A DNA stretch of 64,000 nt from an uncultured Candidatus Binatia bacterium. Its GTDB lineage: Bacteria; Desulfobacterota; Binatia; Bin18. Numbering within the stretch: position 1 is the first letter of the stretch; every line of letters begins with the position of its first letter. The stretch lies in contig CBDESS010000004.1 in NCBI GenBank assembly GCA_965242605.1, positions 5,835 to 69,834 on the forward strand. The letters run 5' to 3'. Under the pieces are notes generated by a model, which saw only the letters and a list, made by a program, of their open reading frames with translations, was not told where the DNA came from and searched no databases. Shown in pieces: positions 4,666 through 56,004 of the stretch. A program made the position numbers and the translations under genes.

Positions 4666-7103
4666 TCGACCGCCTCCGGGCCCCCTGAGGCGGCCCGGGC
4701 CTCCACCCGGACCGCTACCTCCCAGACCCGCTCGGCCCCCCGGCCCTGCCCCGTCCGCAGCTCAGCGATGCGGTAGGCTGGCAGCCGAATGGACCCCAGA
4801 CACCTGCCAGCGAACAACGCCGCCTGCTGCACCTGCGGGGCGTGACCGGGGTGCCGCCAGAACGTGAAATCAAGCACCCGAAAGCCCTCGGATTGGCGGA
4901 CCCCCACGAGCACGGCCGGGTCCCGCGGCCTGACGTGCAGAAAGAAGCCGGGTTCTGTGTCCGCCCGGCGACACGGAGCCCGCAGGTAGGTCAGCGTGGT
5001 CCCGGCGAGGTACACAGCGAAATGCGACCGGGCCACGGGGGGACCCGCCACCGTCGCCCGGTAGGCCGTGCGCACGGCGTCGGTCGCCGGGGCCCCGGGC
5101 GGCGACACAGGGATGGTCACCCGCCACAACTCGGCCCCCCCCTCCCTGCTCGCTACTTGGCTGGCTTCAATGGCCTGAATCAGATAGGCCGGCAAGGGCA
5201 GCCGAATCAGACACCACCCGTCCACCCGCACGCCGTACCGCCTAAGGGCGAAACGCAACTCCTCAAAGCCCCACTTCCGACGCCGCTGGGACAGAGCGGC
5301 CACATCCACCGGGAAGACCCGCACCACGAAGGGCCACCCCCTGTGCAGGTCCGCCGGGCCGCAGGACGTCTTCACCCACATCAAAGTCCGGCTCTCCAGA
5401 TACAGGGCAAAGTCCGCCCGCCCGACCGCCGGCCCGCCCGGCACGGCCCGGGCTACGGCCCGATAGGCGGCCGTGGTGGCCGCGTTGACCCGAGTCAGGT
5501 TGAGGGCCGTCACCGTCAGGAAGGTGTTGTGGTAAATCTTGCGGGCATAGAGGCGAGGCGCGAAGGGGGGACCGCCGAGGTCGCGCCGCAAGAAGTCCAG
5601 GGAGGAACTGAGCACCTGAAAGTCCCCCGGTGGTGCCCCGCCCGCGGCGAAGGCGAGGCGGTGGCGCGCCGCTTTGGGAAGAATGAGCCGGTTTGGGACC
5701 CCCAGAACATGCATCTCCAGCGAGATCGGTGAAGTGGGATAGCGATGGAGGACATGTTCCAACCCCTCCCGGTATATGGTTCCCCAGGAGTACATCTCGT
5801 ACTGGGTCCCCAGGGAGTCGGGCGTGTGCCGGTCAACCAGGGCGTTGAAATAGACCTGCTGATAGGGATGAATGGAAACCGTTGCGACGACCACCCCGGC
5901 CAAGCTCACTGCGGCCAGCGCGTAGACGCCGGGCCGCAGCCTCGGCCGGGGGCAGACCACCGCCAGCCAGCGCAGCCCGAACACCGCCAGCAGACACAGC
6001 GGGGCGTACAGAAAGTAGACCTGACGCCAGTCGTTGTAGAGATTGGCGTTGACGACAATGACGGCGACGACCGGGAGCACCAGACAGGCGACGAGCAGCA
6101 GGCCGAAGCGGGCGACGGGGTCGCCCGGCACGGCACCGGGAGAGCGCAGGCCACGATGTATCACGGACACTGCCCCCACCAGACCCAGCAGCAGCACCCC
6201 CGGCGGGGTGGTAATGGCGATCCAGGTTGGAAGGTAGTGTGCGGGAATATCCGGCCAGTGCACCAGCTCGCCCTGGAAGAGGGTCGAGGAGTGAGTCGGA
6301 TGCTGGGAGGAGACTGCCACAGCCTCGCCCAACAGCAAGGGGTCGCCCCACAGATAGGGCGAGACCGTGTACAGCGTCAATACACTGGCCACCACGAACA
6401 CCGCCCCAGTGCTCAGAACGTGCCAGCGTGCCGCCCGCCCCGCCGCCCCCGCCAGGTCGCCCGCCCGCAGGACCACCACCACGACGAACAGCAACGCGCC
6501 CATGATGCGCAGGTTGGTCGCTACCCCCACCCCCACCCCGCACAGTGCGAACGCCCCAAGGCTCTCCCGCCGCCACGCCCGGTAAATCAGGAACAGAGCG
6601 ACCAGGAACATCACCAGGAAGGGGATGTCCTTGGTGTTGACAAAGGAGTGGGCGTAAAGCCGGGGATGGAGCACGAACAGCAGCAGGGCCGCCAGGGCCA
6701 GCCACCGGCTGCGGAAGAGCTGGTACACCAGCCGGGCACAGCAGTAGCCACCGGCCAGAAAGAAGAGATGGGTCAGCAGATGGCGGCTCAGGTAGATGGC
6801 CCGGCTGTCGGTGAGGCCCAGCAGCCGCTCAACGAGTACCAGCGGCACCTCGAAGACAACGCCATAGAACCGGTGGAAGGGAGGATAGGAGGGCAGCAGG
6901 GTTTCGGCGTCTCCCAGCATGTAGTCGACCGTCGCATGGCCGATGTAGTACTGGACTGGATCGTCCGTCGTTATGCCGTAGTCGTCGAGGACGACCATGC
7001 CCATGACGGCCAAGACCGCCAGGGCCAGGAGCGTGCCGCGGGCAAACACGCCAGCGCCTGCCCTCTGACCCCACTTCGGGAGGGACGCCAGGATACCGCT
7101 CAC
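4662..7103 (-). CDS. GT-C-fold membrane glycosyltransferase paralog, 813 aa
   Basis: 813-aa ORF. GTG start at 7103 overlaps the TGA of the next copy. Same architecture as 2224..4665. Confidence 0.8.
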   Translation of the reverse strand: MSGILASLPKWGQRAGAGVFARGTLLALAVLAVMGMVVLDDYGITTDDPVQYYIGHATVDYMLGDAETLLPSYPPFHRFYGVVFEVPLVLVERLLGLTDSRAIYLSRHLLTHLFFLAGGYCCARLVYQLFRSRWLALAALLLFVLHPRLYAHSFVNTKDIPFLVMFLVALFLIYRAWRRESLGAFALCGVGVGVATNLRIMGALLFVVVVVLRAGDLAGAAGRAARWHVLSTGAVFVVASVLTLYTVSPYLWGDPLLLGEAVAVSSQHPTHSSTLFQGELVHWPDIPAHYLPTWIAITTPPGVLLLGLVGAVSVIHRGLRSPGAVPGDPVARFGLLLVACLVLPVVAVIVVNANLYNDWRQVYFLYAPLCLLAVFGLRWLAVVCPRPRLRPGVYALAAVSLAGVVVATVSIHPYQQVYFNALVDRHTPDSLGTQYEMYSWGTIYREGLEHVLHRYPTSPISLEMHVLGVPNRLILPKAARHRLAFAAGGAPPGDFQVLSSSLDFLRRDLGGPPFAPRLYARKIYHNTFLTVTALNLTRVNAATTAAYRAVARAVPGGPAVGRADFALYLESRTLMWVKTSCGPADLHRGWPFVVRVFPVDVAALSQRRRKWGFEELRFALRRYGVRVDGWCLIRLPLPAYLIQAIEASQVASREGGAELWRVTIPVSPPGAPATDAVRTAYRATVAGPPVARSHFAVYLAGTTLTYLRAPCRRADTEPGFFLHVRPRDPAVLVGVRQSEGFRVLDFTFWRHPGHAPQVQQAALFAGRCLGSIRLPAYRIAELRTGQGRGAERVWEVAVRVEARAASGGPEAVE

Positions 7104-9529
7104 CCGGCCTCCTCCGGGCCGGCTGAGGCGGCCCGGGCCTCCACCGGGACCGCCGCCGCCCAGACCCGCTCGGCCCCCCGGCCCTGCCCGGTCCGCAGCC
7201 TGGTGATGGGGTAAGCTGGCAGCCGAATGGACGCCAGACAGGTGCCGGCAAAGCGCGCCGCCTGGTCTACCTGCGGGGCATAACGGGGGTGCCGCCGGAA
7301 CGCGAAATCGAGCACCTCAAAGCCCCGGGACCGGCGGGCCGCCGCGAGCACAGCCGGGTCCCGGGGTCTGACGTGCAGAAAGAAGCCGGGGGCCGTGTCC
7401 GCTGGACGACAGGGGGCCCGCAGGTAGGTCAGCGTGGTCCCGGCGAGGTACAGGGCAAAGCGCGACCGGGCCACGGGGGCACCCGCCACCGCCACCCGGT
7501 AGGCTTCGCGCACCAGGTCGGTCCCGGTGGCACCGGGAGGCGACACAGGGATGGCCACCCGCCACAGATCGGTGCCCCCGAAAGGCAGCACTTGCCTGGC
7601 TTCAATGGCCCGGCTCGGATAGGCCGGCAAGGGCAGCCGAATCAGACACTGGCCGTCCACCAGGACACCGTACCGGCTGAAGTCGAAGTACCTCTCCTCA
7701 AATCCCCACTTCCGACGCCATCGGGGCAGGTCGGCCACATCCACCGGGAAGACCTGCACCGAGAAGGACCCGCGCAGGTCCGCCGGGCCGCAGGCCACCT
7801 TCACCCACATCAGGGTCTGGTCATCCAGATACAGGTCAAAGCCCACCCGACCGACCGGCACCCCGCCCGTCACGACCCGGACCACAGCCCGATAGGCGGC
7901 CGTGGTGGCTACATCCACCCTGGCCAAGTTGGGGGCCGTCACCGTCAGGACGGTGTTATGGTAAATCTGATGGTTATAGAGGTGAGGCGCGAAGAGAGGG
8001 CCGCTAAGGCCGCGCCGCAAGTTTGAGTGGTGATCGATCACCTGAAAGTCCCCAGACGGCACCCCGCCCTCGGCGAGGACGAGGCGGCGGCGCACCGCTT
8101 TGGGAAGAATGAGCCGATTCCGGACCCCCAGACCATGCATCTCCAGCGAGATCGGTGAAGTGGGATAGCGGCGGAGGAGATGTTCCAACCCCTCCCGGTG
8201 CGTGGTTCCCCAGCGGTCCATCTCGTACCAGGTCCCCAGGTAGTCGGGCGTGCACCGGTCCACCAGGGCATTGAAATAGGCTATCTGGTGGGGATGGAGG
8301 GCCACCAGCTCGACGACCACCCCGGCCAGGCCCGCCGCCGCCAGCCCATGCATGCCCTGCCGCAACACGGCCCAGCGACAGACCGCCGCCAGCCAGCGCA
8401 GCCCGAACACTGCCAGCAGACACACCGGGGCGTACAGAAAGTAGACCTGACGCCAGCCGTTGTAAAGGTTGGCATTGACAACGAGGACGGCGACAACCGG
8501 GAGGACCAGACAGGCGACGAGCAGCAGGCCGAAGCGGACGACGGGGGCACCCAGCACGGTGCCGGGGGAGATCAAACCGCGATGCATCACGGACACTGCC
8601 CCTACCAGACTCAGCAGCAGCACCCCCGGCGGGGTGGTGATGGCAATCCAGGTCGGAAGGTAGTCCGCAGGAAGCTCCGGCCAGCGTACCGGCTCGCCCT
8701 GGAAGAGGGTCACAGCGTGAATCGGGTGCTGGGAGAGGACTGCCACGGCCTCACCTAGCGCCAAGGGGTCACCCCACAGGTAGGGCGAGACCGCGTACAG
8801 CGTCAACACACTGACTGCCACGAACACCGCCCCCGTGCTCAGAACGTGCCAGCGTGCCGCCCGCCCTGCCGCCCCCACCAGGTCGCCCGCCCGCAGGACC
8901 ACCACCACAACGAACAGCAGCACGCCCATGATGCGCAGGTTGGTCGCTACCCCCACCCCGACCCCACACAGTGCGAACGCCCCAAGGCTCTCCCGCCGCC
9001 ATGCCCGGTGAATCAGGAACAGGGCAACCAGGAACAGCACCAGGAAGGGGATGTCCTTGGTATTAACGAAGGAGTAAGCGTAGAGCCGGGGATGGAGCAC
9101 GAACAGCAGCAGGGCGACCAGGGCCAGCCAGCGGCTGTGGAAGAGGTGGTACACCAGCCGGGCACAGCAGTACCCACCGGCCAGAAAGAAGAGGTGGGTC
9201 AGCAGATGGCGGCTCAGGTAGATGGCCCGGCTGTCGGTGAGACCCAGCAGCCGCTCAACGAGCACCAGCGGCACCTCGAAGACGACGCCATAGAACCGAT
9301 TGTGGGGAAGACCGGGGGGCAGCAGAACCTCAGCGTCCCCCAGCAGGTAGTTGACCGCCGCATGGCCGTGTCCGTACCGGAGCTCTTCGTCCCGCGAAAC
9401 GCCGTAGTCGTCAAGGACGGCCACGCCCATGACGGCCAAGACCGTCAGGGCCAGGAGTACGCTGCGGGCAAGCGCGACATCGCCTGCTCCCTGGCCCCGC
9501 TTCGGGGGGGACACCGGGATACCAGTCAC
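7100..9529 (-). CDS. GT-C-fold membrane glycosyltransferase paralog, 809 aa
   Basis: 809-aa ORF. Conserved N-terminal TM domain. C-terminal domain more diverged from copies 2/3 and closer to copy 5. Confidence 0.8.
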   Translation of the reverse strand: MTGIPVSPPKRGQGAGDVALARSVLLALTVLAVMGVAVLDDYGVSRDEELRYGHGHAAVNYLLGDAEVLLPPGLPHNRFYGVVFEVPLVLVERLLGLTDSRAIYLSRHLLTHLFFLAGGYCCARLVYHLFHSRWLALVALLLFVLHPRLYAYSFVNTKDIPFLVLFLVALFLIHRAWRRESLGAFALCGVGVGVATNLRIMGVLLFVVVVVLRAGDLVGAAGRAARWHVLSTGAVFVAVSVLTLYAVSPYLWGDPLALGEAVAVLSQHPIHAVTLFQGEPVRWPELPADYLPTWIAITTPPGVLLLSLVGAVSVMHRGLISPGTVLGAPVVRFGLLLVACLVLPVVAVLVVNANLYNGWRQVYFLYAPVCLLAVFGLRWLAAVCRWAVLRQGMHGLAAAGLAGVVVELVALHPHQIAYFNALVDRCTPDYLGTWYEMDRWGTTHREGLEHLLRRYPTSPISLEMHGLGVRNRLILPKAVRRRLVLAEGGVPSGDFQVIDHHSNLRRGLSGPLFAPHLYNHQIYHNTVLTVTAPNLARVDVATTAAYRAVVRVVTGGVPVGRVGFDLYLDDQTLMWVKVACGPADLRGSFSVQVFPVDVADLPRWRRKWGFEERYFDFSRYGVLVDGQCLIRLPLPAYPSRAIEARQVLPFGGTDLWRVAIPVSPPGATGTDLVREAYRVAVAGAPVARSRFALYLAGTTLTYLRAPCRPADTAPGFFLHVRPRDPAVLAAARRSRGFEVLDFAFRRHPRYAPQVDQAARFAGTCLASIRLPAYPITRLRTGQGRGAERVWAAAVPVEARAASAGPEEAG

Positions 9530-11997
9530 TCGGCCTCCTCCGGGCCGACTGAGGAGGCCCGGGCCTCCACCCGGGCCGCCGCCGCCCAGGCCCGCTCGGC
9601 CCCCTGGCCCTGCCCGGTCCGCAGCCCGGCGATGGGGTAAGCCGGCAGCCGAATGGCCGCCAGACAGGTACCAGCGAAGAACACCGCCTGGTCTACCTGC
9701 GGGGTGCGACGGGAGTGCCGCCGGAACGCGAAATCGAGCACCTCAAAGCCCCGGGGCCGGCGGGCCGCAGCGAGCACGGCCGGGTCCCGTGGCATGATGT
9801 GCAGAAAGAAGCCGGGGGCCGTGTCCGCCGGACGACAGGGGGCCCGCAGGTAGGTCAAGGCGGTCCCGTCAAGGTACAAGGCAAAGTGCGACCGGGCCAC
9901 GGGGGGACCCGCCACCGTCGCCCGGTAGGCCGTACGCACCAGGTCGGTCGCGGTGGCACCGGGGGGCGACACAGGAATGGCCACCCGCCACAGATCGGCA
10001 CCCGTGGAAGGAGCCACTTGACCGGCTTCGATGGCCCGGATCGGGTAGGCTGGCAAGGGCAGCCGGAGCAGACACCGGCCGTCCACCCGGACGCCGTACC
10101 GGCTGAAGTCGAAGTACCTCCCCTCAAAGCCCCACTTCCGACGCCACCGAGGCAGATCGGCCACGGCCGCCGGAAAGACCTGCACCGAGAAGGAGCGCCC
10201 GCGCGTGTCCGCTGGGCCGCAGGCCGCCTTCACCCACATCAAAGTCTGGCCATCCAGATACAGGTCAAAGCCCGACCGACCGACCGGCACCCCACCCGTC
10301 ACGACCCGGACCACGGCCCGATAGGCGGCCGTGGTGGCCGCGTCTACCCGGGCCGGGTTGAGGGCCGTCACCGTCAGGATGGTGTTGTGATAAATCTGGC
10401 GGGTATAGAGGCTGGGTGCGAAGAGGGGACCGCTAAGGCCGCGCCGCAAGTTTGAGTGGTGATCGATCACCCGAAAGTCCCCTGGCGGCGCACCGCCCTC
10501 GGCGAGGACGAGGAGGCGGCGCGCCGCTTTGGGAAGAATGAGCCAGTTTTGGCGCACCTGGCCGATATCCAGACCGCGTGTCTCCACCGAAACCGGTGAG
10601 GTGGGATAGCGGTGGAGGAGATGTTCCAACCCCTCTCGGTATGTGGTTCCCCAGCGCTCCATCTCGTACTGGGTCCCCAGGTATTCGGGCGTGCGCCGGT
10701 CCACCACGGCGTTGAAATAGGCCATCTGGTGAGGATGAAGGCCCACCAACTCGACGACCACCCCGGCCAGACCCGCTGCGGCCAGCGCGTGGACGCCCGG
10801 CCGCAGCCCCGGCCAGGGGCAGACCGCCGCCAGCCAGCGCAGCCCGAACACTGCCAGCAGACACAGCGGGGCGTACAGAAAGTAGACATGACGCCAGTCC
10901 ATGTAGAGGTTGGCATTGACGACGAGGACGGCGACAACCGGGAGCACCAGACAGGCGACGAACAGCAGCCCGAAGCGGGCGACGGGGTCGCCCAGCACGG
11001 TACCAGGGGAGCGCAGGCTGCGATGCATCACGGACACTGCCCCTGCCAGACTCAGCAGCAGCACCCCCGGCGGGGTGGTGATGGCAATCCAGGTCGGAAG
11101 GTAGTCCGCGGGGATATGCGGCCAGCGCACCGGCTCGCCCTGGAAGAGGGTCGCAAGGTGAATCGGGTGCTGGGAGAGGACTGCCACGGCCTCACCTAGC
11201 GCCAAGGGGTCACCCCACAGGTAGGGCGAGACCGCGTACAGCGTCAATACACTGGCCACCACGAACACCGCCCCCGTGCTCAGAACGTGCCAGCGCGCCG
11301 CCGCCCCCACCAGGTCGCCCGCCCGCAGGACCACCACCACAACGAACAGCAGCACGCCCATGATACGCAGGTTGGTCGCTACCCCCACCCCCACCCCGCA
11401 CAGTGCGAACGCCCCAAGGCTCTCCCGCCGCCACGCCCGGTGAATCAGGAACAGGGCACCCAGGAACATCACCAGGAAGGGGATGTCCTTGGTATTAACG
11501 AAGGAGTAAGCGTAGAGCCGGGGATGGAGCACGAACAGCAGCAGGGCGACCAGGGCCAGCCAGCGGCTGTGGAAGAGGTGGTACACCAGCCGGGCACAGC
11601 AGTAGCCACCGGCCAGAAAGAAGAGGTGGGTCAGCAGATGGCGGCTCAGGTAGATGGCCCGGCTGTCGGTGAGGCCCAGCAGCCGCTCAACGAGCACCAG
11701 CGGCACCTCGAAGACGATGCCGTAGAACCGGTTGGCGGGACCACCAGGGAGCAGCAGGACCTCGGCGTCTCCCAGCAGGTAGTTGACCGCCGCATGGCCG
11801 ATCCGGCGCTGAGGGGACTCCTCGTCCGCCCCTACGCCGTAGTCGTCAAGGACGGCCACGCCCACGACGGCAAAGACCGCCAGGGCCAGGAGCGCACTGC
11901 GGGCGAGCACGCCGGCGACTGCTCCCTGGCCCTGCTTCGGGGGGGACGGCGGGATACCATTCACTCGGCCCCCTCCTTGCCGGGGTCGGAAGACCAC
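9526..11997 (-). CDS. GT-C-fold membrane glycosyltransferase paralog, the last copy of the array. Likely true start GTG at 11964 rather than 11997.
   Basis: 823-aa ORF. The paralog-conserved N-terminus begins at …VNGIPPSPPKQGQ. GTG at 11964..11962 overlaps the TGA (11961-11963) of the upstream GT2-remnant ORF, the same GTGA junction as inside the array. Confidence 0.8.
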   Translation of the reverse strand: MVFRPRQGGGRVNGIPPSPPKQGQGAVAGVLARSALLALAVFAVVGVAVLDDYGVGADEESPQRRIGHAAVNYLLGDAEVLLLPGGPANRFYGIVFEVPLVLVERLLGLTDSRAIYLSRHLLTHLFFLAGGYCCARLVYHLFHSRWLALVALLLFVLHPRLYAYSFVNTKDIPFLVMFLGALFLIHRAWRRESLGAFALCGVGVGVATNLRIMGVLLFVVVVVLRAGDLVGAAARWHVLSTGAVFVVASVLTLYAVSPYLWGDPLALGEAVAVLSQHPIHLATLFQGEPVRWPHIPADYLPTWIAITTPPGVLLLSLAGAVSVMHRSLRSPGTVLGDPVARFGLLFVACLVLPVVAVLVVNANLYMDWRHVYFLYAPLCLLAVFGLRWLAAVCPWPGLRPGVHALAAAGLAGVVVELVGLHPHQMAYFNAVVDRRTPEYLGTQYEMERWGTTYREGLEHLLHRYPTSPVSVETRGLDIGQVRQNWLILPKAARRLLVLAEGGAPPGDFRVIDHHSNLRRGLSGPLFAPSLYTRQIYHNTILTVTALNPARVDAATTAAYRAVVRVVTGGVPVGRSGFDLYLDGQTLMWVKAACGPADTRGRSFSVQVFPAAVADLPRWRRKWGFEGRYFDFSRYGVRVDGRCLLRLPLPAYPIRAIEAGQVAPSTGADLWRVAIPVSPPGATATDLVRTAYRATVAGPPVARSHFALYLDGTALTYLRAPCRPADTAPGFFLHIMPRDPAVLAAARRPRGFEVLDFAFRRHSRRTPQVDQAVFFAGTCLAAIRLPAYPIAGLRTGQGQGAERAWAAAARVEARASSVGPEEAE

Positions 11998-12245
11998 AGG
12001 TCAAGACCGTAGCACCTGCCCGCCCGCCAACCCCTCCATCCCAGTTCGGGAAGTTGCTCAAGGGCAGCCACCAGACAGCGGTGCATCTCGGGCAGGACCG
12101 CTTCCTCATTGAAGCAGGGGACAACTACAGACAGGAGACTACAGTTTCTAACACTGAATCGGGGCGGCAGCAGGCGGTGAAGAGATCGTGCCATCAGCCC
12201 TATCAGTGCCGGGAAGTATACGTCTGGGAAATCTCTATGAGACAT
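11961..12245 (-). pseudogene. Remnant of a GT2 (Dpm1/ArnC-like polyprenyl-phosphate sugar synthase type) glycosyltransferase. Only the N-terminal ~67 aa remain, fused to a few codons resembling a GT-C 3' tail.
   Basis: 94-aa ORF contains the classic GT2 N-terminal motif LSVVVPCFNEEAVLPE…LEQLPE. It then lacks the expected (D)YEII.VDDGS motif in any frame. It terminates on the GTGA junction of the first array gene. Confidence 0.5.
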
Positions 12246-12925
12246 TCAAACAAGTGGCTGGCTTCGACCGTGGGGATAGGCTCTGGCACCGTCTGGTGTA
12301 TCAGTTCCTTGTCGAAGAACCCGTCAAGCGAACCGGCCAATCCAATGGAGCGAGCAAATGCGGTCAGGGGGGCAACAATGGTCCGATGGAACGCCTCCGG
12401 CCTCCAGTGCAGCACGGGGAACCGCAACTTTTCGTGCAAGAGAACAAGTTCGGTATTATACGCACACCACAGCCGCAGACCATCGTCCCTCTCGACCGTA
12501 AGCGAGCCGTGTCTAGCGGCGAGCGACCGGATGACCAGAGACGGGTGCCGAAATATCGCTATGGGGCGCGCACCGGGTACCAACCGCAGCCATCCCTCCA
12601 CGGTCCACATGGTGCGGGGATCCTTGAATCCCCAGGGACGTGCGGCTTCAAGATAGGGAAAAATCAGTGCCTTGCCTTGTCTTTCGCTCTTGTGATCCCA
12701 CTTGACTTGGCCACTTGGCGGGTCCCTCCAGGAGGCACCCGCCTTGGTCAACAGCGCATCGTTCAACTCCCGTATGGCTTCATTTTCCTTATTGCCCTTT
12801 TTGTTGAAAGGGGCTTGGTGATTAACATCGCCCAGATACAACCCTCCAGCCTCTAGGCTGCCGAGCAGAAGTGATGTTCCACTCCGGTGCATCCCCAAAA
12901 CGATCACACATGGAGACTGTGACAT
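12203..12925 (-). CDS. Sulfotransferase family protein (PAPS-dependent)
   Basis: 240 aa. N-terminal VIVLGMHRSGTSLL matches the 5'-phosphosulfate-binding loop of sulfotransferases. Plus-strand ORFs here are antisense shadows. Confidence 0.7.
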   Translation of the reverse strand: MSQSPCVIVLGMHRSGTSLLLGSLEAGGLYLGDVNHQAPFNKKGNKENEAIRELNDALLTKAGASWRDPPSGQVKWDHKSERQGKALIFPYLEAARPWGFKDPRTMWTVEGWLRLVPGARPIAIFRHPSLVIRSLAARHGSLTVERDDGLRLWCAYNTELVLLHEKLRFPVLHWRPEAFHRTIVAPLTAFARSIGLAGSLDGFFDKELIHQTVPEPIPTVEASHLFECLIEISQTYTSRH

Positions 12926-48499: not shown

Positions 48500-48928
48500 A
48501 TGGAGGGAGAGATGTCGGAACTGAACAAGTATAATCAGCAGGTGATTGCAGAGTTTCGGGCCAACCAGGGCAAGGTCGGCGGCCAGATGGAGAATATGCC
48601 GGTGGTGCTGCTGACCATGACCGGGGCCAAGAGCGGCAGAACGATCACCAAGCCGCTGGTGTATACGACCGACAGGGAGCGCATTGTCGTCATCGCCTCC
48701 TTCGCCGGAGCGCCCCATCACCCTGCCTGGTATCATAACCTGGTCGCTAACCCCGAGGTCACGCTTGAGATCGGCAGCGAGCGCTTTCGGGCCAGGGCAG
48801 AGGTGACGATCGGCGAAGAGCGCCAGCGGCTGTTTGACCGCCAAGCCGAGCACATGCCGATTTTTCACGACTACCAGAAAAAAACCACCCGCCAGATTCC
48901 GGTCGTGGTGTTCAAGCGGCTTGACTGA
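48500..48928 (+). CDS. Deazaflavin (F420)-dependent nitroreductase-family protein (DUF385/PNPOx-like)
   Basis: 142 aa, typical DUF385 length and motifs (…VLLTMTGAKSGR…). Confidence 0.7.
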   Translation: MEGEMSELNKYNQQVIAEFRANQGKVGGQMENMPVVLLTMTGAKSGRTITKPLVYTTDRERIVVIASFAGAPHHPAWYHNLVANPEVTLEIGSERFRARAEVTIGEERQRLFDRQAEHMPIFHDYQKKTTRQIPVVVFKRLD

Positions 48929-48957
48929 CCCGAGCCGTGCGTTGGGACTGCTGAGGC

Positions 48958-50706
48958 TCAGTCGAAGAGGGGCCGCTGCCGGCTTCGCTTCGCACCGCTC
49001 CGGTCTGCGGTCCGGTTCTCGGTCATGCCGGTTGTGCGGGCGGCGGCGCACACCTCTCCCCAGCCGATGAAATAGTCATCAAAGTAGTGGATCGGATAGC
49101 GGCTGAGGCGTTTGACCTCGGCCCGGGTTGGAAGCCGGCCCAAGTGCCGGGCAATGTTCCTGACCTCTAATTGCAAGACTTTCTTTGAGACCTGGTAATC
49201 AATAGCGCCGATCCGACGGACCCGGCTGTTCTTCGCCTGAAGGTTTCGGGTCGCCTTGGCAAAAGGGTCTTCCCCTTGTCGCAAGGTTTCGTGTCGGCTC
49301 AGGGCGAGTTGGTGATAATTCTCCGATACCTCAATGCCGATAAACTTCCGTCCCAACTGCTCAGCGCACAGCGAGGTCGTACCAGCCCCGTTAAACGGGT
49401 CCAGCACGCTTTCCCCCTCAAAGGTGAGCAGGGCTATGAGGCGGCGCATCAGAGCAGGTGGGAGCTGGCAGGGATGGTCAACCCGGCGGGCATTATGCTT
49501 AAGCCGGTGAATATCCCACCACAGGTCGCTTATGTTCTCCCGGTCGGCGAGGCGGAGCCGGCGGCGATCCTTCACACAGTTGGCGCGCAGGCAGTACCAT
49601 TCCTTAAGAGAGCTCAGCGCCGTCTGGGTCTTCTGCTCATTGTTTTGCAGTCCAGGCAGAGGTCGGGGCGGTCCCTTTGAGCAGCACAGGATGGCGTAGT
49701 GAGCCGGCATGATCTTACGCACCGGCAGGCTGAGCCCCTCCCAGGCGATCCAATTCTGAAAGGCGAGACGATTCTTGAGATACAGAAAATGCCGAACCGC
49801 CCACTGGGGGATATTCAGGATGGCACAAGTCCTTCCCGGCTTCAGCACCCGCGCCAATTCGGCCAGCCAGCGGTCGCACCAGGCAAAATACTCCCGCGCA
49901 TCGTCCCAGGTATCGTACCGCTTGGCGATATTGTAGGGAGGATCAGCAAAGCAGAAATCAATGCTGTTCGACGCTATGGACGCCAAGAGGTCTAGGCTGT
50001 CTCCGTTGATCAGGCTTGACGACTGGAGCGAGGGGCCGGCACCGTCGTCGCTGAGCAATTGAACGGCTGATCTTGTGGAGCGGAGGCTTTGGACCGCTGT
50101 GAGGTCAAGGACATGCAGGCTTGTGTAGGGGGCAAGCCCAAAGACATCGCTCAGTCGGCCTGCAATCTGGTCCGCCTCAGCGTCGGGAGCCCAGTCAATA
50201 TCCCGCCAGACATCCGACATGAGCGTCCCGTACTCGTGGTAGGTGTGCTTTTTCCCGCCATAGTCCTTTGTCGTCTTGTCACACGCCGGGTAGTAGGTGT
50301 AGGCGATGCGCGTCTTGGTGTGCCGCAGGGGTGTGGGGTACTTCGTCAGGACGAGCAGGGCTGCGTGATGCTCTGGGAGCCGGCCGGGGTTGGCGACAGG
50401 CTCTCCGAGCTTTATGGCGACCCATAACTGAAAATGCAGCACATCCGTCACCTGCATCAGAGTGGTGGCGGCATCCACTGGTGTCGTGAGGAGACACAGC
50501 ACGGAATCATCGGGCAGCAGGCCGGCAAACCTGTGGAGATGCTTGAACCAAGCCCTGTCAGTTTCGCTGTCGGCCAGCGAGCGTCCATACGGCAGGATGA
50601 ATAGCCATACAGCGGGGTGTCTGTCGGGGGCGGGGAGTTGGCCGAGGTCCTGCAAGGACAGCCTGACGACGCACAGCGGCCTCACTCCTTCGGACTGGTG
50701 GGCCAT
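48958..50706 (-). CDS. DNA N4/N6 methyltransferase (beta-class, N6_N4_Mtase) with a ~235-aa N-terminal domain of unknown function and a C-terminal DNA-binding-like tail
   Basis: Motif IV FADPPYNI, motif I LDPFNGAGTT. N-terminal 235 aa lack recognisable motifs. C-terminal GRLPTRAEV…YFIGWGEV module. GC ~58%, lower than the surroundings. Start MAHQSEG at 50706, 1 nt after the stop of the upstream gene. Confidence 0.8.
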   Translation of the reverse strand: MAHQSEGVRPLCVVRLSLQDLGQLPAPDRHPAVWLFILPYGRSLADSETDRAWFKHLHRFAGLLPDDSVLCLLTTPVDAATTLMQVTDVLHFQLWVAIKLGEPVANPGRLPEHHAALLVLTKYPTPLRHTKTRIAYTYYPACDKTTKDYGGKKHTYHEYGTLMSDVWRDIDWAPDAEADQIAGRLSDVFGLAPYTSLHVLDLTAVQSLRSTRSAVQLLSDDGAGPSLQSSSLINGDSLDLLASIASNSIDFCFADPPYNIAKRYDTWDDAREYFAWCDRWLAELARVLKPGRTCAILNIPQWAVRHFLYLKNRLAFQNWIAWEGLSLPVRKIMPAHYAILCCSKGPPRPLPGLQNNEQKTQTALSSLKEWYCLRANCVKDRRRLRLADRENISDLWWDIHRLKHNARRVDHPCQLPPALMRRLIALLTFEGESVLDPFNGAGTTSLCAEQLGRKFIGIEVSENYHQLALSRHETLRQGEDPFAKATRNLQAKNSRVRRIGAIDYQVSKKVLQLEVRNIARHLGRLPTRAEVKRLSRYPIHYFDDYFIGWGEVCAAARTTGMTENRTADRSGAKRSRQRPLFD

Positions 50707-50707
50707 G

Positions 50708-51559
50708 TCAGTGCCCCGCTCCAAACTCTCGCAGATATTCGGCCAGAGCGTCAAGTTCGGTGTCACGGAATGTCACCACGTTCTGGCTGATACCAGAAAT
50801 CCTTGTCCGGGAGAAATCCCACCCGTGAAGACAGCACTTGAGACATTCGCGCACATAAGACTGGGCCAATTGATCCATAGTGTTGGCAGTGGCCCCGCCG
50901 GTAATCTCGGTGTCTGCCTGGCGTATCCGCCGGGCCAATTGGCCCATAGTGTTGGCAGTGGCCCCGCCGGTAATCCTGCTCACATGAATATAGCGTTGCC
51001 GCACAAAGGTGTCTAACTCGCTCTTATTCCCAAGCATCGTACCAATGCAGCACCTCTGGAATACGTCGTCTGGTCTGTCGAGATTTGTCGCAGCACCCCC
51101 GTGCAGAAGGACCATAGCCACATCCTGCATTTCCCGTGTGAGTTGTTCAGCGTTTACGAGCCTCGTCCCATCAACTGCCAGATTACGATTTGTCCATTTC
51201 ATATCCGTACTGAGCGACTGGAACCGATAGGAACATCTGCTGCCGCGCCAGATGAAACTCATGACTCGCTCAGGAAAAAAATTCTCAATTTCCCTCCCTA
51301 TACACTGTAAGAGTTCGCCTCCAATGTCTGTGAGCACCATGAGATGCTTGAGAAAAAGATTCCCCGCCATCCCCGATGTAGCGTCTAGTACCGATATCCA
51401 CGAAGTAGGCGACGAATCGGCTACATACAGGATGCCTATGAATTTCTCCTGGCTGTCAATGAGGCGTGGTATGACGCTGCTCTGCTGAGACCGATCTGTA
51501 AGGCTGTCAGGCCAGAATTTGACGGCCCTTGCCTCAAGATCACCCAAAGAGCGCGACAT
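50708..51559 (-). CDS. Hypothetical 283-aa protein translationally coupled to the MTase (candidate restriction/effector component). Contains an in-frame 23-aa tandem duplication.
   Basis: Lower-GC ORF with plausible protein composition. Internal repeat ITGGATANTMGQLARRIRQADTE / ITGGATANTMDQLAQSYVRECLK. Confidence 0.5.
   Translation of the reverse strand: MSRSLGDLEARAVKFWPDSLTDRSQQSSVIPRLIDSQEKFIGILYVADSSPTSWISVLDATSGMAGNLFLKHLMVLTDIGGELLQCIGREIENFFPERVMSFIWRGSRCSYRFQSLSTDMKWTNRNLAVDGTRLVNAEQLTREMQDVAMVLLHGGAATNLDRPDDVFQRCCIGTMLGNKSELDTFVRQRYIHVSRITGGATANTMGQLARRIRQADTEITGGATANTMDQLAQSYVRECLKCCLHGWDFSRTRISGISQNVVTFRDTELDALAEYLREFGAGH
50862..50976. repeat. 46-bp near-perfect direct repeat x2 with a 23-bp spacer (69-bp period, in-frame) inside the 283-aa gene
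   Basis: gggccaattgatccatagtgttggcagtggccccgccggtaatctc … gggccaattggcccatagtgttggcagtggccccgccggtaatcct. Confidence 0.8.
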
Positions 51560-51610
51560 GGATATTCAGCCTGGCAAAACCCCACGCTCCTGTGGAGCGT
51601 GGTCATGTGC

Positions 51611-52393
51611 CTATCTGCGATCGATAAACACCCGCTCTTTGGCGACCCACATGGCCGAGCGCGGAAAGTCGATGAAGTGGGACTCGTCCTCAACCGCAAC
51701 TTGCATGGCCTGCCGACCCTCCGGCGTGGTCCCGACCGCGGTCAGGTCAACCCGGTCAAACCAGGCCTCGGCATGGCCGGTGTAGGGCGCAACCGTCGTC
51801 CCCCGGCTGACCCGGAGTTGATCTTCAATCTCATCCTCGAAGCGGTGGACTTGCAGGTAGCGTTTCATCCGCATCCCCGATGCCACGCCCCGAATCAGCG
51901 GACCGTGGTTGGTGCGCCAGTAGAGCTGGGCTTCGTCAAGACTGAGGGTGTCCTGGTGACGCAGACAGAAGAACAGCTTTAGCAAACCGCTGTTTTCCCG
52001 CGCGACTACCTCTTCTGGAATCGGGTTGACCTGGGGATATTCATAGGCCAGCCACAGCGGGGATTGGGCCAAGTCGATGAACCGCGCCTCGTCCTTGACC
52101 AACTCCTGAGCCGCGGCGCGGCCCGCCTCGGTCCTGGAGGCGTTGACCAGGGTCTCACGGTTAGTCCACCACACTTCCGCCACTCCGTCATAGACCGGCT
52201 CCATACCGCCCCGCGCTTCTGCCAGCTGGTCGTTTATCGGATCGTTGAGCGTGTGGACCTGTACATAGCGGTGTATGGCCAAGTCGGTGGCGCGCCTGGC
52301 TACCAAGGGACCATGCACCTCACGCCAGTAGCGTTGAAATTCGGCGCGCGACATGTTGGGTTTGCGATGGAGGACAAACGTTAAACGAATCAT
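51611..52393 (-). CDS. Tandem EthD-domain protein
   Basis: MIRLTFVLHRKPNMSRAEFQRYWREVHGPL and a second repeat LLKLFFCLRHQDTLSLDEAQLYWRTNHGPL. GGAGG RBS. Confidence 0.7.
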   Translation of the reverse strand: MIRLTFVLHRKPNMSRAEFQRYWREVHGPLVARRATDLAIHRYVQVHTLNDPINDQLAEARGGMEPVYDGVAEVWWTNRETLVNASRTEAGRAAAQELVKDEARFIDLAQSPLWLAYEYPQVNPIPEEVVARENSGLLKLFFCLRHQDTLSLDEAQLYWRTNHGPLIRGVASGMRMKRYLQVHRFEDEIEDQLRVSRGTTVAPYTGHAEAWFDRVDLTAVGTTPEGRQAMQVAVEDESHFIDFPRSAMWVAKERVFIDRR

Positions 52394-53831: not shown

Positions 53832-56004
53832 ATGTCGGAGGACGGCGTGAAACTGAAACGCGAAGGCGGAAAGATATGGAGCCGCGTTCGCCGAAAATGG
53901 CTTGTCGAAACGCCGGAAGAGTCTGTCCGTCAGCAATACCTCCTCGTCCTGCTCTACGAATACGGCTACGGTCTGGAGCAGATTGCCGAAGAAGGAGCAG
54001 CTTGCGGACAATCCGCTTGAAGACTTATTTCGAAGGACAAAGGAGCACTACCGGGAAGATCGTATCTTCGCTGAAAACGAATGTCTGAACCTGAAGCCCA
54101 CGACCGGCATTGAGATCGTGCGACTTCTCGAACGCTATAACCTCTCCGACACGAGCGAGGACATCAAGGGTATTGCCTTCGAGCGCTTCCTGGGCAGGAC
54201 CTTCCGGGGTGAGATTGGTCAGTTCTTTACGCCACGTCCGATTGTCGAGTTCATGGTTCGTATGCTGGCCCCGAAGGAAGGCGAGGTCATTTGCGACCCG
54301 GCCAGCGGCTCCGGCGGCTTCTTGATCCGCTTTTTTGAGATCGTCCGGGAGCGAATTCTTGCTGACGTGGACCGGCAATACCAGGAGTTCCGCAGCGAAG
54401 TCAAAAGCAATAAGCAGCAGACTCAGGAGGAAAAAGCCGAAGCGCTCCGCACCAAGTACGCCGAATTGCAAAAGACTCTCGATAACGGCACCTGTGGCTC
54501 CCGGCTCTGGAACTTGGCGAACCGCTGCATCTATGGCACGGACGCGAACGACCGCATGGCCCGCACCAGCAAGATGAACATGATTATGCACGGCGATGGC
54601 CATGGCGGTGTGCATCACCATGACGGCTTTCTGAACGTAAACGGCATCTTTGAAGGCCGTTTCGACATCATCCTGACCAACCCGCCCTTTGGTTCGAGCG
54701 TTGAACCTTCGGACACGGTTCTTGAAGAACAAGTCACACTCCCCGACGAACTCGAACACCACTATGCCAACATCTACGGCGACCATTACCGCGCCGCGCT
54801 CAGCCGTCTCCGTGCCGCCACGGGTAAGCCTATCGCCAGCCTGTTCGCGTTGCCGACTATAAAGAGAAATCGCAGGGGCGGCAAGGTCAAGACCGGGCTT
54901 CTTTTTCAGGAAACCCGAGAGAAATACGCCCCTGAGATTGCCGAGCGAACCGGAACATTCGAAGCGTCCATTGCCGAGGCCAAGAAAGATAAGGCTACTG
55001 ACCGACGCAAGGCTCTGCAAGCCGCACTCAAGCAATATCAACGCGAGACTGAAGCGAAAATCCGAGCCGAAACCCGCGCCCTGCTCAAGTCCCGCTTCCC
55101 CTATCCTGTCTTTCTCTACGAAGCCAAGCATGTCGGCATCACCGCCACCGGTGAAACTGACCGCGTACCGAATGAGCTTGTGCCCGGTGATTCCACGCCA
55201 GCGGGAATAGAAAAGACTACTCTCGAATTCTACCAAGAGTTTAGGACAAGCCCGGAAGCCTTGTCATTGTGGCGGTCGCGAGTAATAGGCGTTAGCCCTT
55301 TCCCTGCCTGCTTTCGCATATCATTCTCCGACACGCATCGCTGGGACCCCGGCAGTTTTTGCCTTTTGGACTGGCACTGGGAGCCGAGCGTACTAAATCC
55401 AATTGGCAGTGTTTTGAAGCCGCGTAGAGAAAAAGTTGACAGAAACCGCCATAGTTTTACGAGTCTGCAACCCATTACGATCCATTTCGACGGTTCACTA
55501 GACAAGCGAAGTGTCAAGCCTGATAAAGAATACTCAATGGATCTCTTTTTTGCTCGTTCCGGTGATTTGGTCGTTGCGAAGATAGACCTCAAGAATGGAG
55601 CGGTTGGCGTCGTTCCAGAAGGCTGGGAGAACGTAGCTGTTACCGGACATTTTGCTGTTTATGAAGTTGATTCAGAGAAAGTCCTTGTTCAGTGGTTACA
55701 TCGTATTATTCAGCAACCAGATTTTAAGGAGTATCTGTGGCGCAATAAAGTTGGTGCCGAAGGTCGGAAAGAGGTCAAGTTGGATTTCTTCGAGTCAATT
55801 CCAATTCCGCTTCCGGACATCGCCACACAAGAGGCTATCCTAATGGAGCGTGACCTAATCCGATCGGAAATTGATCGCTTGACTCAACTTCTAACAGAAT
55901 CCGAATTCCATCTGACTGAGATGGTTCATGGACGCATTCCTCCTCGTCGAAAACAGAATATTTTGCGGCCGATAAAGAACGCTATCCGCGAGGAAGAACC
56001 TTGA
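53832..56004 (+). pseudogene. Single-chain N6-adenine DNA methyltransferase (gamma-class, HsdM-like) fused to a C-terminal HsdS-type TRD. The N-terminal HSDR_N-like segment lies in a different frame (frameshift near 53993-54005).
   Basis: Motif X FTPRPIVEFMVRML, motif I GEVICDPASGSGGFL, motif IV ILTNPPFG. C-terminal TRD plus the conserved HsdS helix IPIPLPDIATQEAILMERDLIRSEIDRLTQLL. Upstream ORF 53832..54020 encodes PEESVRQQYLLVLLYEYGYGLEQIAEE (HSDR_N_2-like) and joins the main frame only via a 1-nt shift in gccgaagaaggagcag. Confidence 0.65.

What the first reader, a model, noticed from the sequence alone, without database searches (positions are those of the whole stretch)
48958..51559. Lower-GC island: a 283-aa protein translationally coupled to a DNA methyltransferase carrying an unexplained ~235-aa N-terminal domain
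The MTase (DPPY, FNGAGTT) has large unassigned N-terminal and C-terminal extensions. Its ATG lies 1 nt after the stop of a 283-aa lower-GC ORF with no recognisable motifs. The pair resembles a Type II R-M (REase then MTase), but the accessory domains and the novel partner could indicate a different modification-dependent system. GC (~50-58%) is clearly below the flanking ~67% genes.
Basis: partly seen in the sequence, partly recalled or inferred. Interest (0 to 1): 0.6.

Follow-up and report, generated by a model that had tools for sequence, protein, structure and literature searches.

The report
Broken BanI-type restriction enzyme, intact methylase
This is an ordinary BanI-type restriction-modification gene pair in which the DNA-cutting enzyme has lost its conserved core while the protective methylase is intact, and the methylase's "unexplained" front domain is a dead copy of a methylase domain found throughout this enzyme family.

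Summary
The two ORFs, the DPPY and FNGAGTT motifs and the stop-C-ATG junction are real. The 283-aa protein is not novel. It is a BanI-family Type II restriction endonuclease (Pfam RE_BanI, E=9.5e-75), and it is damaged. Against 337-340-aa homologues it has an in-frame 240-nt deletion that removes the most conserved C-terminal core. It also has a 69-nt insertion inside an invariant motif and an R86C change at an invariant residue. A relative with the same gene order carries the intact 340-aa gene at the same locus.

The 582-aa beta-class N6/N4 methyltransferase looks intact, so it now probably acts alone. Its Pfam-blank N-terminal ~205 aa is a degenerate copy of the methyltransferase domain. 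It lacks the catalytic and SAM-binding motifs but keeps a very conserved CPxC...HxxH loop. The C-terminus is a small HNH_repeat-like helical module.

This REase-then-long-MTase layout recurs in 79 of 81 related loci across many phyla. DNA around those loci is depleted in GGYRCC, which fits BanI specificity and implies N4-cytosine methylation. Nothing supports a different, modification-dependent system. The moderately new point is the suspected single-chain pseudo-dimer design of the methylase.

The parts
50708..51559 (-). Remnant of a BanI-family Type II restriction endonuclease gene (283-aa open frame; intact homologues are 337-340 aa)
   Evidence: Pfam RE_BanI E=9.5e-75, but only profile positions 3-211 of 338 are matched. 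The alignment to P0002 (80% identical), P0003 and others shows one insertion and one deletion. tblastn of P0002 covers only residues 1-237.
50874..50942 (-). 69-nt in-frame insertion (23 aa) inside the invariant SRITGGxTANxMGQL motif. It is a 44-nt direct duplication plus about 25 nt of filler of unknown origin
   Evidence: DNA alignment to the syntenic locus L001. The direct repeat is at 50863-50906 and 50932-50975, 95% identical, spaced 69 nt.
50779..50780 (-). Junction of a 240-nt (80-aa) in-frame deletion. The missing segment holds invariant residues D246, C257-A-I-E260, S262-F-Q264, T266-T-N-S269, I271-E-R-K274 and D297-G-A-G-N-F302 (P0002 numbering)
   Evidence: The collection scan used CAIE[VI]SFQ and TTNS[TV]IERK as the family's most conserved peptides, and both lie in the deleted segment. 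Six of 15 family members give weak DpnII-nuclease hits in this region.
51302..51304 (-). Codon 86 of the REase stub: Cys where the family has an invariant Arg (R86C)
   Evidence: Invariant column R86 in A5. The change is specific to the window lineage. Codon checked.
50704..50710 (-). Stop/start junction TGA-C-ATG (REase stop, one base, MTase start), the layout expected for translational coupling
   Evidence: The MAHQSE N-terminus is conserved in 34 homologues, which fixes the ATG at 50706 as the start and rules out the upstream GTG at 50766.
48958..50706 (-). 582-aa beta-class N6/N4 DNA methyltransferase, apparently intact
   Evidence: Pfam N6_N4_Mtase E=5.3e-42 at residues 249-468. Foldseek of the AF2 model gives M.BceJIV 5e-16, CcrM 8e-16, TTHA0409, M.MboIIA and N4CMT. 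Only one deviation occurs at near-invariant columns. dN/dS is 0.29 overall and 0.18 in the catalytic domain.
50092..50706 (-). N-terminal domain (aa 1-205): a degenerate, catalytically dead methyltransferase-like domain. ILPYG replaces DPPY, and LHVLDLTAVQS replaces VLDPFNGAGTT
   Evidence: hhalign of the N-terminal against the catalytic sub-alignment gives prob 83.6%, E=8e-6 and 184 collinear columns; none of 20 column shuffles reached it. phmmer hits include true PF01555 proteins. The AF2 model has pLDDT 76.9. Foldseek gives CcrM 1.4e-7, M.MboIIA, M.BceJIV and METTL3/METTL14.
50200..50328 (-). TRD-equivalent loop of the dead domain (aa 127-169, LRHTKTRIAYTY[C>Y]PACDKTTKDYGGKKHTYHEYGTLMSDVWRD), with a candidate CPxC...HxxH zinc knuckle. 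It is the most conserved segment of the whole protein. The window copy has C139Y (codon 50290-50292)
   Evidence: Mean column identity is 0.91, against 0.77-0.80 for the catalytic motifs. Invariant residues are listed. C139Y is the only near-invariant deviation. pLDDT is low (<50) here.
49279..50022 (-). Catalytic methyltransferase domain (aa 229-476) with motif IV DPPY (49933-49944) before motif I FNGAGTT (49375-49395), the beta-class order. A window-specific 3-aa deletion follows ...WDDA
49039..49188 (-). C-terminal four-helix module matching HNH_repeat (homing-endonuclease-associated repeat), probably DNA binding
   Evidence: PF18780 E=1.3e-5, 25.9 bits against a cut-off of 26. Helices 508-557 in the model. 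Conserved in the family.
51573..51611 (-). Hairpin followed by GGTTTTG between the EthD stop and the REase start. It looks like the terminator of the upstream gene, so the R-M operon would need its own promoter
   Evidence: Inverted repeat I1 with 18-nt arms; sequence. Function is inferred.

Best explanation
The locus is a BanI-family Type IIP restriction-modification operon (REase then MTase, stop and start one base apart). It was inherited vertically in a Binatia-like lineage and is now decaying.

REase. In this genome the REase gene has three lesions:
- an in-frame 240-nt deletion of the family's most conserved C-terminal core, the presumed PD-(D/E)XK-type catalytic region;
- a 69-nt duplication-type insertion that splits an invariant motif;
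- an R86C change at an invariant arginine.
The 283-aa product therefore very probably cannot cut DNA.

MTase. The downstream 582-aa beta-class amino-methyltransferase keeps all its catalytic motifs and shows no excess of damaging changes. It probably still methylates the family's site and now acts as a solitary methylase. The site is most likely GGYRCC. Some GGYRCC variants contain no adenine, so the modified base would be N4-methylcytosine.

N-terminal domain. It is not an add-on from another system. It is an internally duplicated methyltransferase domain that has lost motif IV (DPPY) and motif I (FxGxG). It keeps, under very strong conservation, the loop that corresponds to a target-recognition region, a candidate CPxC...HxxH zinc knuckle. 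My inference is that it plays the part of the second, non-catalytic subunit of the dimers formed by related enzymes such as CcrM, M.BceJIV and M.MboIIA. It would help hold or read the DNA while the C-terminal domain methylates, and the C-terminal HNH_repeat-like helices would add DNA binding.

What is shown: family assignments, the lesions, synteny, domain homology and fold, the conserved operon layout, and site depletion. What is inferred: loss of cleavage, retained methylation, the site and base, and the pseudo-dimer role.
For: REase identity and damage:
- RE_BanI E=9.5e-75, covering only profile positions 3-211 of 338.
- Homologues are 337-340 aa. The alignment shows a 23-aa insertion and an 80-aa deletion. 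DNA-level confirmation against L001 is and the direct repeat.
- The deleted segment contains the family's most conserved peptides and gives weak DpnII/Mrr-type nuclease hits.
- R86C lies at an invariant site.
- The same allele is 100% identical over 1665 nt in a separate ENA scaffold.

Vertical inheritance:
- L001 has the same flanking genes and an intact 340-aa REase.
- dS is about 0.2 for the R-M genes and the flanks alike.

MTase intact:
- Motifs are present.
- There is one near-invariant deviation; the other 33 family sequences show 0-8.
- Lineage-specific substitutions number 10 in the window and 17 in the sister.
- The fold matches beta-class MTases at E~1e-15.

N-terminal domain:
- hhalign prob 83.6%, E=8e-6, above all 20 shuffles.
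- phmmer reaches true PF01555 proteins.
- The Foldseek top hits are CcrM, M.MboIIA, M.BceJIV and METTL14.
- Its TRD-like loop is the most conserved segment, at 0.91 column identity.

Family layout: 79 of 81 loci have the long MTase, including the N-terminal domain, directly downstream of the REase.

Specificity:
- In 79 loci from other phyla GGCACC/GGTGCC is the most depleted of 2016 non-palindromic hexamers (246 observed against 419 expected).
- GGCGCC is 298 against 467.
- Observed is below expected in 69 of 78, 60 of 76 and 55 of 74 loci for the three GGYRCC classes.
Against: - The claim that the deleted 80 aa hold the catalytic centre rests on conservation and on weak Pfam hits (E 0.015-0.04).
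- The stub's frame is still open. Both indels are in frame, and its dN/dS against L001 (0.30) is no higher than the MTase's. The loss is therefore recent, or the stub is still under some constraint.
- The MTase copy carries C139Y in the putative zinc knuckle and a 3-aa deletion after motif IV, so it may be impaired.
- In the Binatia sequences (window, L001, L002) GGCACC/GGTGCC and GGTACC are not depleted (90 observed against 96 expected, and 13 against 19). Only GGCGCC is depleted (1 against 52). The site of this particular clade is therefore uncertain.
- The hexamer depletion has no control set of genomes that lack the system.
- The inter-domain geometry could not be inspected and no DNA complex was modelled. 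The pseudo-dimer role is an analogy.
- Foldseek TM-scores for the N-terminal model are only 0.43-0.50.
Confidence: 0.75

Rival explanations
1. The pair is a fully working Type II R-M system and the 283-aa protein is simply a shorter active REase variant.
For: The frame is open and the stop/start junction fits coupling. The N-terminal 211 aa are well conserved, 80% identical to P0002. dN/dS is not raised.
Against: All full-length homologues among the 120 best hits are about 335-350 aa. The missing 80 aa carry more than 30 invariant residues. A 23-aa insertion splits the invariant SRITGGxTANxMG motif and R86 is lost. The syntenic sister genome has the full 340-aa gene.
Confidence: 0.05
2. One reading: the extra domains and the partner form a different, modification-dependent or otherwise non-classical defence system.
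For: Pfam has no model for the N-terminal 248 aa. The locus lies near a second methylase-like gene.
Against: Both proteins fall in classical R-M families. The N-terminal domain is itself methyltransferase-like and always accompanies an intact BanI-like REase elsewhere. Host DNA around such loci avoids GGYRCC, as expected when unmethylated sites are cut. No PADLOC model other than R-M matched.
Confidence: 0.03
3. The REase stub has been kept on purpose. It may serve as a translated leader that delivers ribosomes to the coupled MTase start, or as a DNA-binding or dimerising remnant that regulates or assists the MTase.
For: Two independent indels are both in frame, with a chance of about 1 in 9, and there is no stop codon. 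The TGA-C-ATG junction is retained. Window-specific substitutions in the stub (4) are no more than in the sister's intact gene (3). A terminator-like hairpin lies upstream, so the operon relies on its own signals.
Against: Only one genome, seen in two assemblies from the same sequence data source, shows this allele. An invariant Arg is lost and an invariant motif is split. The same pattern is expected from a very recent inactivation. A promoter-like site inside the stub (51015-50987) could drive the MTase independently, but its count is no better than chance.
Confidence: 0.2
4. The N-terminal domain is a regulatory or partner-binding module and not a pseudo-subunit for DNA handling. It might control R/M expression, as the M.SsoII N-terminus does, or dock the REase.
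For: Its most conserved part is a basic, Cys/His-containing loop that could bind an operator or a protein. It always occurs with this one REase family.
Against: The fold and collinear homology are those of the methyltransferase core, not of an HTH regulator. Related beta-class enzymes work as dimers in the solved structures that were the best matches (the dimer mechanism is from my knowledge of the CcrM and M.BceJIV structures).
Confidence: 0.2
5. The deletion and insertion are assembly or binning artefacts of a metagenome-assembled genome.
For: The source is a metagenome. The insertion contains a 44-nt direct repeat.
Against: A separate ENA scaffold is 100% identical over 1665 nt spanning both lesions. 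Both lesions are in frame. No long repeat flanks the deletion in L001 that could cause a collapse.
Confidence: 0.04

Closest known systems
BanI / HgiCI Type IIP restriction-modification systems (GGYRCC; Pfam PF24447 RE_BanI plus PF26568 RE_BanI_C)
   Same: The REase is homologous (E=9.5e-75 for the stub; 5.6e-120 for the intact sister P0002). Gene order is head to tail. Host DNA is depleted in all GGYRCC classes in family loci.
   Different: From my knowledge, not tested here, the characterised BanI and HgiCI systems use C5-cytosine methyltransferases. This family pairs the REase with a 580-600-aa beta-class N6/N4 amino-methyltransferase. In the window the REase lacks the RE_BanI_C core.
Beta-class amino-methyltransferases that act as dimers: CcrM (6pbd), M.BceJIV (8urk), M.MboIIA (1g60), TTHA0409 (2zif), M.RsrI, M.PvuII
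   Same: The catalytic domain matches them at Foldseek E 5e-16 to 4e-12. It has DPPY before FxGxGTT. Like CcrM it has an extra C-terminal DNA-binding-type module.
   Different: Here a second, degenerate methyltransferase-like domain is fused in the same chain. It has no DPPY and no glycine loop but a highly conserved Cys/His loop. The known enzymes use two identical chains.
METTL3-METTL14 (active plus catalytically dead MTase-fold partner)
   Same: An active amino-MTase domain is combined with a dead MTase-fold domain. METTL14 chains are among the best Foldseek matches of the N-terminal model (E 4e-6).
   Different: METTL3-METTL14 is an RNA m6A writer made of two separate proteins in eukaryotes. 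There is no evidence here of the same interface. The similarity is of fold and logic only.
Solitary (orphan) methyltransferases that arise by decay of R-M systems
   Same: An intact MTase sits beside an inactivated REase gene at a vertically inherited locus.
   Different: The REase remnant is still an open, possibly translated frame. No evidence yet shows that the MTase has been kept for a new role, and only one genome was examined.

Membership tests
BanI-family Type II restriction endonuclease (PF24447/PF26568) | Significant full-length match to the family profile | tested here: not met
   The match is highly significant (E=9.5e-75) but covers only profile positions 3-211 of 338. The sister P0002 matches 3-336.
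BanI-family Type II restriction endonuclease (PF24447/PF26568) | Presence of the conserved C-terminal core (D246, CAIEVSFQ, TTNSTIERK, DGAGNF) | tested here: not met
   An 80-aa in-frame deletion removes all of these residues.
BanI-family Type II restriction endonuclease (PF24447/PF26568) | Cleavage of unmethylated GGYRCC | not testable with these tools
   Only indirect evidence exists: GGYRCC depletion around intact family members. The window itself shows no depletion of GGCACC or GGTACC.
Type II R-M operon | Adjacent same-strand REase and cognate MTase genes | tested here: met
   The junction is TGA-C-ATG. The same layout occurs in 79 of 81 related loci.
Beta-class N6/N4 DNA amino-methyltransferase (PF01555) | Motif IV (D/S)PP(Y/F) placed before motif I FxGxG, with the Rossmann-type fold | tested here: met
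   PF01555 E=5.3e-42. DPPY is at aa 255-258 and FNGAGTT at aa 438-444. Foldseek gives E~1e-15 to M.BceJIV, CcrM and M.MboIIA.
Beta-class N6/N4 DNA amino-methyltransferase (PF01555) | Target base (N4-C or N6-A) and target site | not testable with these tools
   N4-C is inferred because GGCGCC, one GGYRCC variant, contains no adenine. DPPY does not discriminate between the two bases.
N-terminal domain as a member of the PF01555 methyltransferase family | Detectable sequence and fold homology to the MTase core | tested here: met
   hhalign prob 83.6%, E=8e-6, above 20 of 20 shuffles. phmmer hits to PF01555 proteins. Foldseek CcrM 1.4e-7 with TM 0.43-0.50. Pfam itself gives no hit.
N-terminal domain as a member of the PF01555 methyltransferase family | Catalytic motif IV and SAM-binding motif I | tested here: not met
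   The family consensus is xLPxGR in place of DPPY, and LxVVDLxxxxL in place of VLDPFNGAGTT. The domain is therefore homologous but not an active enzyme.
Solitary/orphan DNA methyltransferase | No functional cognate REase | tested here: inconclusive
   The adjacent REase is very probably dead. No second copy lies in the 64-kb window. The rest of the genome was not available.
Pseudo-dimeric (active plus dead domain) methyltransferase, of the METTL3-METTL14 type | The dead domain packs on the active one and contributes to substrate binding | not testable with these tools
   The full-length model has pTM 0.75, but coordinates, PAE and DNA complexes could not be examined.

The most novel reading that the evidence does not exclude
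The whole family is an undescribed class of Type II modification enzyme built as a single-chain pseudo-heterodimer. The family comprises more than 1600 proteins. A scan found 376 stretches encoding the partner REase in a one-genome-per-species collection, from many bacterial phyla and one Methanoperedens MAG. In this reading the dead methyltransferase domain uses a zinc-knuckle loop, the most conserved part of the protein, to read or hold one half of the GGYRCC site. The active domain makes m4C. This would parallel the METTL3-METTL14 logic inside a bacterial R-M enzyme. The window would then show the system part-way to becoming a solitary methylase, with the REase stub kept in frame to feed the coupled MTase start.
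Probability: 0.3. Interest if true: 0.5.

Novelty: new variant of a known kind. Interest (0 to 1): 0.3.

Why it matters
For genome annotation, the 283-aa ORF should be labelled a BanI-family REase remnant and not a hypothetical protein or an active nuclease. The MTase should be treated as probably solitary.

For enzymology, the result gives a testable account of a large methylase family whose first ~230 residues have no Pfam model. The account is a fused, dead methyltransferase domain with a candidate zinc-knuckle recognition loop. If correct, it would extend the 'one subunit reads, one subunit methylates' mechanism seen in CcrM-type dimers to a single chain. It would also add an m4C partner to BanI-type nucleases.

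The k-mer result shows that the recognition site of an uncharacterised R-M family can be recovered from about 1 Mb of flanking DNA. None of this is a new kind of defence system.

Tried and rejected
- Tandem Repeats Finder found nothing in 48500-52000. The 69-nt duplication was found only by alignment and the repeat finder.
- Pfam and NCBIfam on the isolated N-terminal 248 aa gave no hit, even at E<=10.
- PDB sequence searches with the intact REase P0002 and with profile A5 gave nothing usable. The only hits were a spurious BurrH repeat match and a sortase. The nuclease fold is therefore unverified.
- Literature searches for GGYRCC, for BanI/HgiCI, and for inactive methyltransferase domains in R-M systems found no description of this architecture. 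This is absence of evidence in an open-access library only.
- The promoter and terminator scan was no better than shuffles.
- I considered and set aside the idea that GGCGCC avoidance in the window (1 observed against 31 expected) shows a GGCGCC-specific enzyme. Two low-GC contigs from the same REase subclade (L082, L083) were uninformative. GGCGCC avoidance may come from another system.
- I considered that the MTase is also decaying, given C139Y, the 3-aa deletion and an N-terminal dN/dS of 0.58. The counts are within the family range, so this stays a caveat.
Full report
**Observation.** On the minus strand there is a 283-aa ORF (50708-51559) followed by a methyltransferase ORF. The sequence at the junction is ...CAC TGA C ATG GCC..., so the MTase ATG (50706) lies one base after the REase stop. 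An upstream GTG (50766) gives a longer ORF. However, 34 homologues all begin MAHQSE, which fixes the ATG as the start. DPPY (49933-49944) and FNGAGTT (49375-49395) are present. The GC claim is only partly right. The REase ORF is 52.9% GC and the MTase 60.3%. The window is 62.4% and the flanks 61-64%, not 67%.

**The 283-aa protein is a damaged BanI-family restriction enzyme.**
- It matches Pfam RE_BanI at E=9.5e-75, but only over profile positions 3-211 of 338. PADLOC calls it REase_II.
- A search of 5.8 billion proteins found 453 relatives. Full-length ones are 337-340 aa, and the closest is 80% identical.
- Alignment shows two in-frame lesions in the window copy.
  - A 23-aa insertion sits inside the invariant SRITGGxTANxMGQL motif.
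  - An 80-aa deletion follows ...ISGISQN.
- At the DNA level the insertion is 69 nt. It consists of a 44-nt direct duplication (50863-50906 and 50932-50975, 95% identical) plus about 25 nt of filler. The deletion is 240 nt, with its junction at 50780|50779.
- The lost segment holds more than 30 invariant residues: D246, CAIE260VSFQ, TTNSTIE272RK274 and DGAGNF. The collection scanner chose CAIE[VI]SFQ and TTNS[TV]IERK as the family's most conserved peptides.
- Six of 15 family members give weak DpnII-nuclease hits in this region, and single members hit Mrr_cat_2 and MTES_1575. This suggests, without proving, that the region is the PD-(D/E)XK core.
- A third lesion is R86C at an invariant arginine.
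- A separate ENA scaffold (L084) is 100% identical over 1665 nt across both indels, so an artefact of one assembly is unlikely.

**History of the locus.**
- A 25-kb contig (L001) carries the same neighbours in the same order: PhyH, EthD, F420H2 quinone reductase, CoA-transferase, DUF6841, enoyl-CoA hydratase and nitroreductase. It has an intact 340-aa REase and a 583-aa MTase.
- A Candidatus Binatia chromosome (L002) has a REase 98% identical to L001's, so the window is probably from Binatia.
- dS between the window and L001 is about 0.17-0.29 for the R-M genes and the flanks alike. The system was therefore inherited vertically and the REase was damaged in the window lineage.
- The stub's dN/dS (0.30) and its lineage-specific changes (4 against 3 in the sister) are not raised. 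The loss is either recent or the stub is still constrained. Both indels being in frame has a chance of about 1 in 9. That is weak support for keeping the frame open, perhaps to feed the coupled MTase start.

**The methyltransferase.**
- Residues 249-468 match PF01555 (E=5.3e-42) and residues 507-556 match HNH_repeat (E=1.3e-5, 25.9 bits against a cut-off of 26).
- The AF2 model has pLDDT 76.6 and pTM 0.75. It matches M.BceJIV, CcrM, TTHA0409, M.MboIIA, the rotifer N4CMT, M.RsrI and M.PvuII at E 5e-16 to 4e-12.
- The copy looks functional.
  - Only one deviation occurs at near-invariant columns (C139Y). The other 33 family sequences show 0-8 such deviations.
  - Lineage-specific substitutions number 10 against 17 in the sister.
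  - Catalytic-domain dN/dS is 0.18.
- The caveats are C139Y and a 3-aa deletion in a low-confidence loop after motif IV.

**The 'unexplained' N-terminal domain.** Pfam and NCBIfam give nothing for it. Four lines of evidence show that it is a degenerate methyltransferase domain.
1. Profile-profile comparison of the N-terminal against the catalytic sub-alignment is collinear over 184 columns (prob 83.6%, E=8e-6). The best of 20 column-shuffled controls reached only E=0.004.
2. An exhaustive phmmer search with the domain reaches ordinary 230-260-aa PF01555 proteins, and the match lies inside their MTase domain.
3. The domain modelled alone has pLDDT 76.9. Its best PDB matches are CcrM (1.4e-7), M.MboIIA, M.BceJIV and METTL3/METTL14, with TM-scores of 0.43-0.50.
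4. Its secondary-structure order parallels that of the catalytic domain.

The domain has lost motif IV, with xLPxGR in place of DPPY. It has also lost motif I, with LxVVDL in place of VLDPFNGAGTT. It is therefore catalytically dead. Its TRD-equivalent loop (aa 127-169...YCPACDKTTKDYGGKKHTYHEYGTLxSDVWRD) is nevertheless the most conserved part of the whole protein. Its mean column identity is 0.91, against 0.77-0.80 for the catalytic blocks. The loop has a CPxC...HxxH pattern that suggests zinc binding.

I infer that the domain acts as the non-catalytic 'second subunit' of a built-in pseudo-dimer. This rests on analogy with the dimeric beta-class enzymes that are its closest structural matches. 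A regulatory or REase-docking role is a rival.

**Family context and site.**
- The genome scan found 376 stretches encoding a relative of the REase in a collection with one genome per species. The loci kept came from Planctomycetota, Bacteroidota, Verrucomicrobiota, Acidobacteriota, Chloroflexota, Armatimonadota and a Methanoperedens MAG, among others.
- In 79 of 81 loci the long MTase, including the N-terminal domain, lies directly downstream on the same strand. In most loci the tblastn match to the MTase begins 3-50 nt after the REase match ends.
- Other contexts are defence islands, one of them next to an IS1595 transposase.
- In 1.1 Mb of DNA around 79 such loci, GGCACC/GGTGCC is the most depleted of 2016 non-palindromic hexamers (246 observed against 419 expected, z=-8.4). 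GGCGCC is 298 against 467, and GGTACC is also low.
- Observed counts are below expected in 69 of 78, 60 of 76 and 55 of 74 loci for the three classes.
- This fits the BanI site GGYRCC. The MTase must protect GGCGCC, which has no adenine, so it should make N4-methylcytosine. This step is an inference.
- The Binatia sequences behave differently. GGCGCC is almost absent (1 observed against 52 expected over the window, L001 and L002). The other GGYRCC variants are not depleted. The site of this clade, or the cause of its GGCGCC avoidance, is unresolved.

**Comparison and verdict.**
- By mechanism and origin this is a classical Type IIP R-M system of the BanI REase family. It differs from the characterised BanI and HgiCI systems in using a beta-class amino-methyltransferase where they use a C5 enzyme. 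That point is from my own knowledge and was not tested here.
- The window copy fails the membership test for an active BanI-type REase. It is best described as an R-M system decaying toward a solitary methylase.
- The one point of moderate novelty is the family-wide fusion of an active domain with a dead methyltransferase domain. I found no description of it in the searchable literature.

Noticed in passing
window 53832-56004 (+): A second low-GC islet (53.1% GC) that looks like another R-M scar. A 62-aa ORF (53832-54020) holds only the first ~55 codons of an HSDR_N_2 gene, which is intact (195 aa) in L001. Homology to L001 stops at about 54010. From there, in another frame, runs a 700-aa ORF. 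It is a 5'-truncated type-I-like N6-adenine MTase (PADLOC MTase_I E=1.6e-110, matching profile positions 240-523 of 749; NPPF motif) fused to an HsdS-like recognition domain (aa 488-665). No R subunit lies nearby.
   Followed up: partly
whole window; L001; L002: GGCGCC is almost absent from the Binatia sequences: 1 observed against 31 expected in the window, 0 against 8.2 in L001 and 0 against 12.9 in L002. It is the most avoided 6-bp palindrome in the window. CTGCAG (1 against 15.4), CCATGG (4 against 20.5), CAGCTG (6 against 24.2) and GGGCCC (18 against 43) are also strongly avoided. The cause is unknown; it may be other R-M systems, past or present.
   Followed up: partly
window 1-12700: A tandem repeat of about 2.43 kb in at least five copies (spacings 2426-2441 nt, 65-97% identical). 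It was first seen as a periodic pattern of GGYRCC sites. The unit length is not a multiple of three, so these may be tandemly duplicated genes and not in-frame modules.
   Followed up: no
window 51573-51611: An 18-nt-arm inverted repeat followed by GGTTTTG lies in the 51-nt gap between the EthD stop and the REase start. It is probably the EthD terminator, which would leave the R-M operon dependent on its own promoter.
   Followed up: no
L082:4170-9791 and L083:1456-3095: In other hosts the same R-M module sits in defence islands. In L082 it lies next to an IS1595 transposase, a BglII-like endonuclease with an MT-A70 methylase, and a C5 methylase. In L083 it lies near GmrSD and HEPN genes. The module is therefore mobile, even though it is vertically inherited in Binatia.
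   Followed up: no
L081 (Victivallaceae MAG), 10001-11005: This is the only complete locus of the 81 with a BanI-like REase but no long MTase detected within 10 kb. It may use a different methylase partner.
   Followed up: no
MTase catalytic domain, aa 372-404 (window ~49495-49593): The active domain also carries invariant Cys/His residues (C372, C377, H400, H404) at the position equivalent to the CPxC...HxxH loop of the dead domain. Both halves may therefore bind metal.
   Followed up: no
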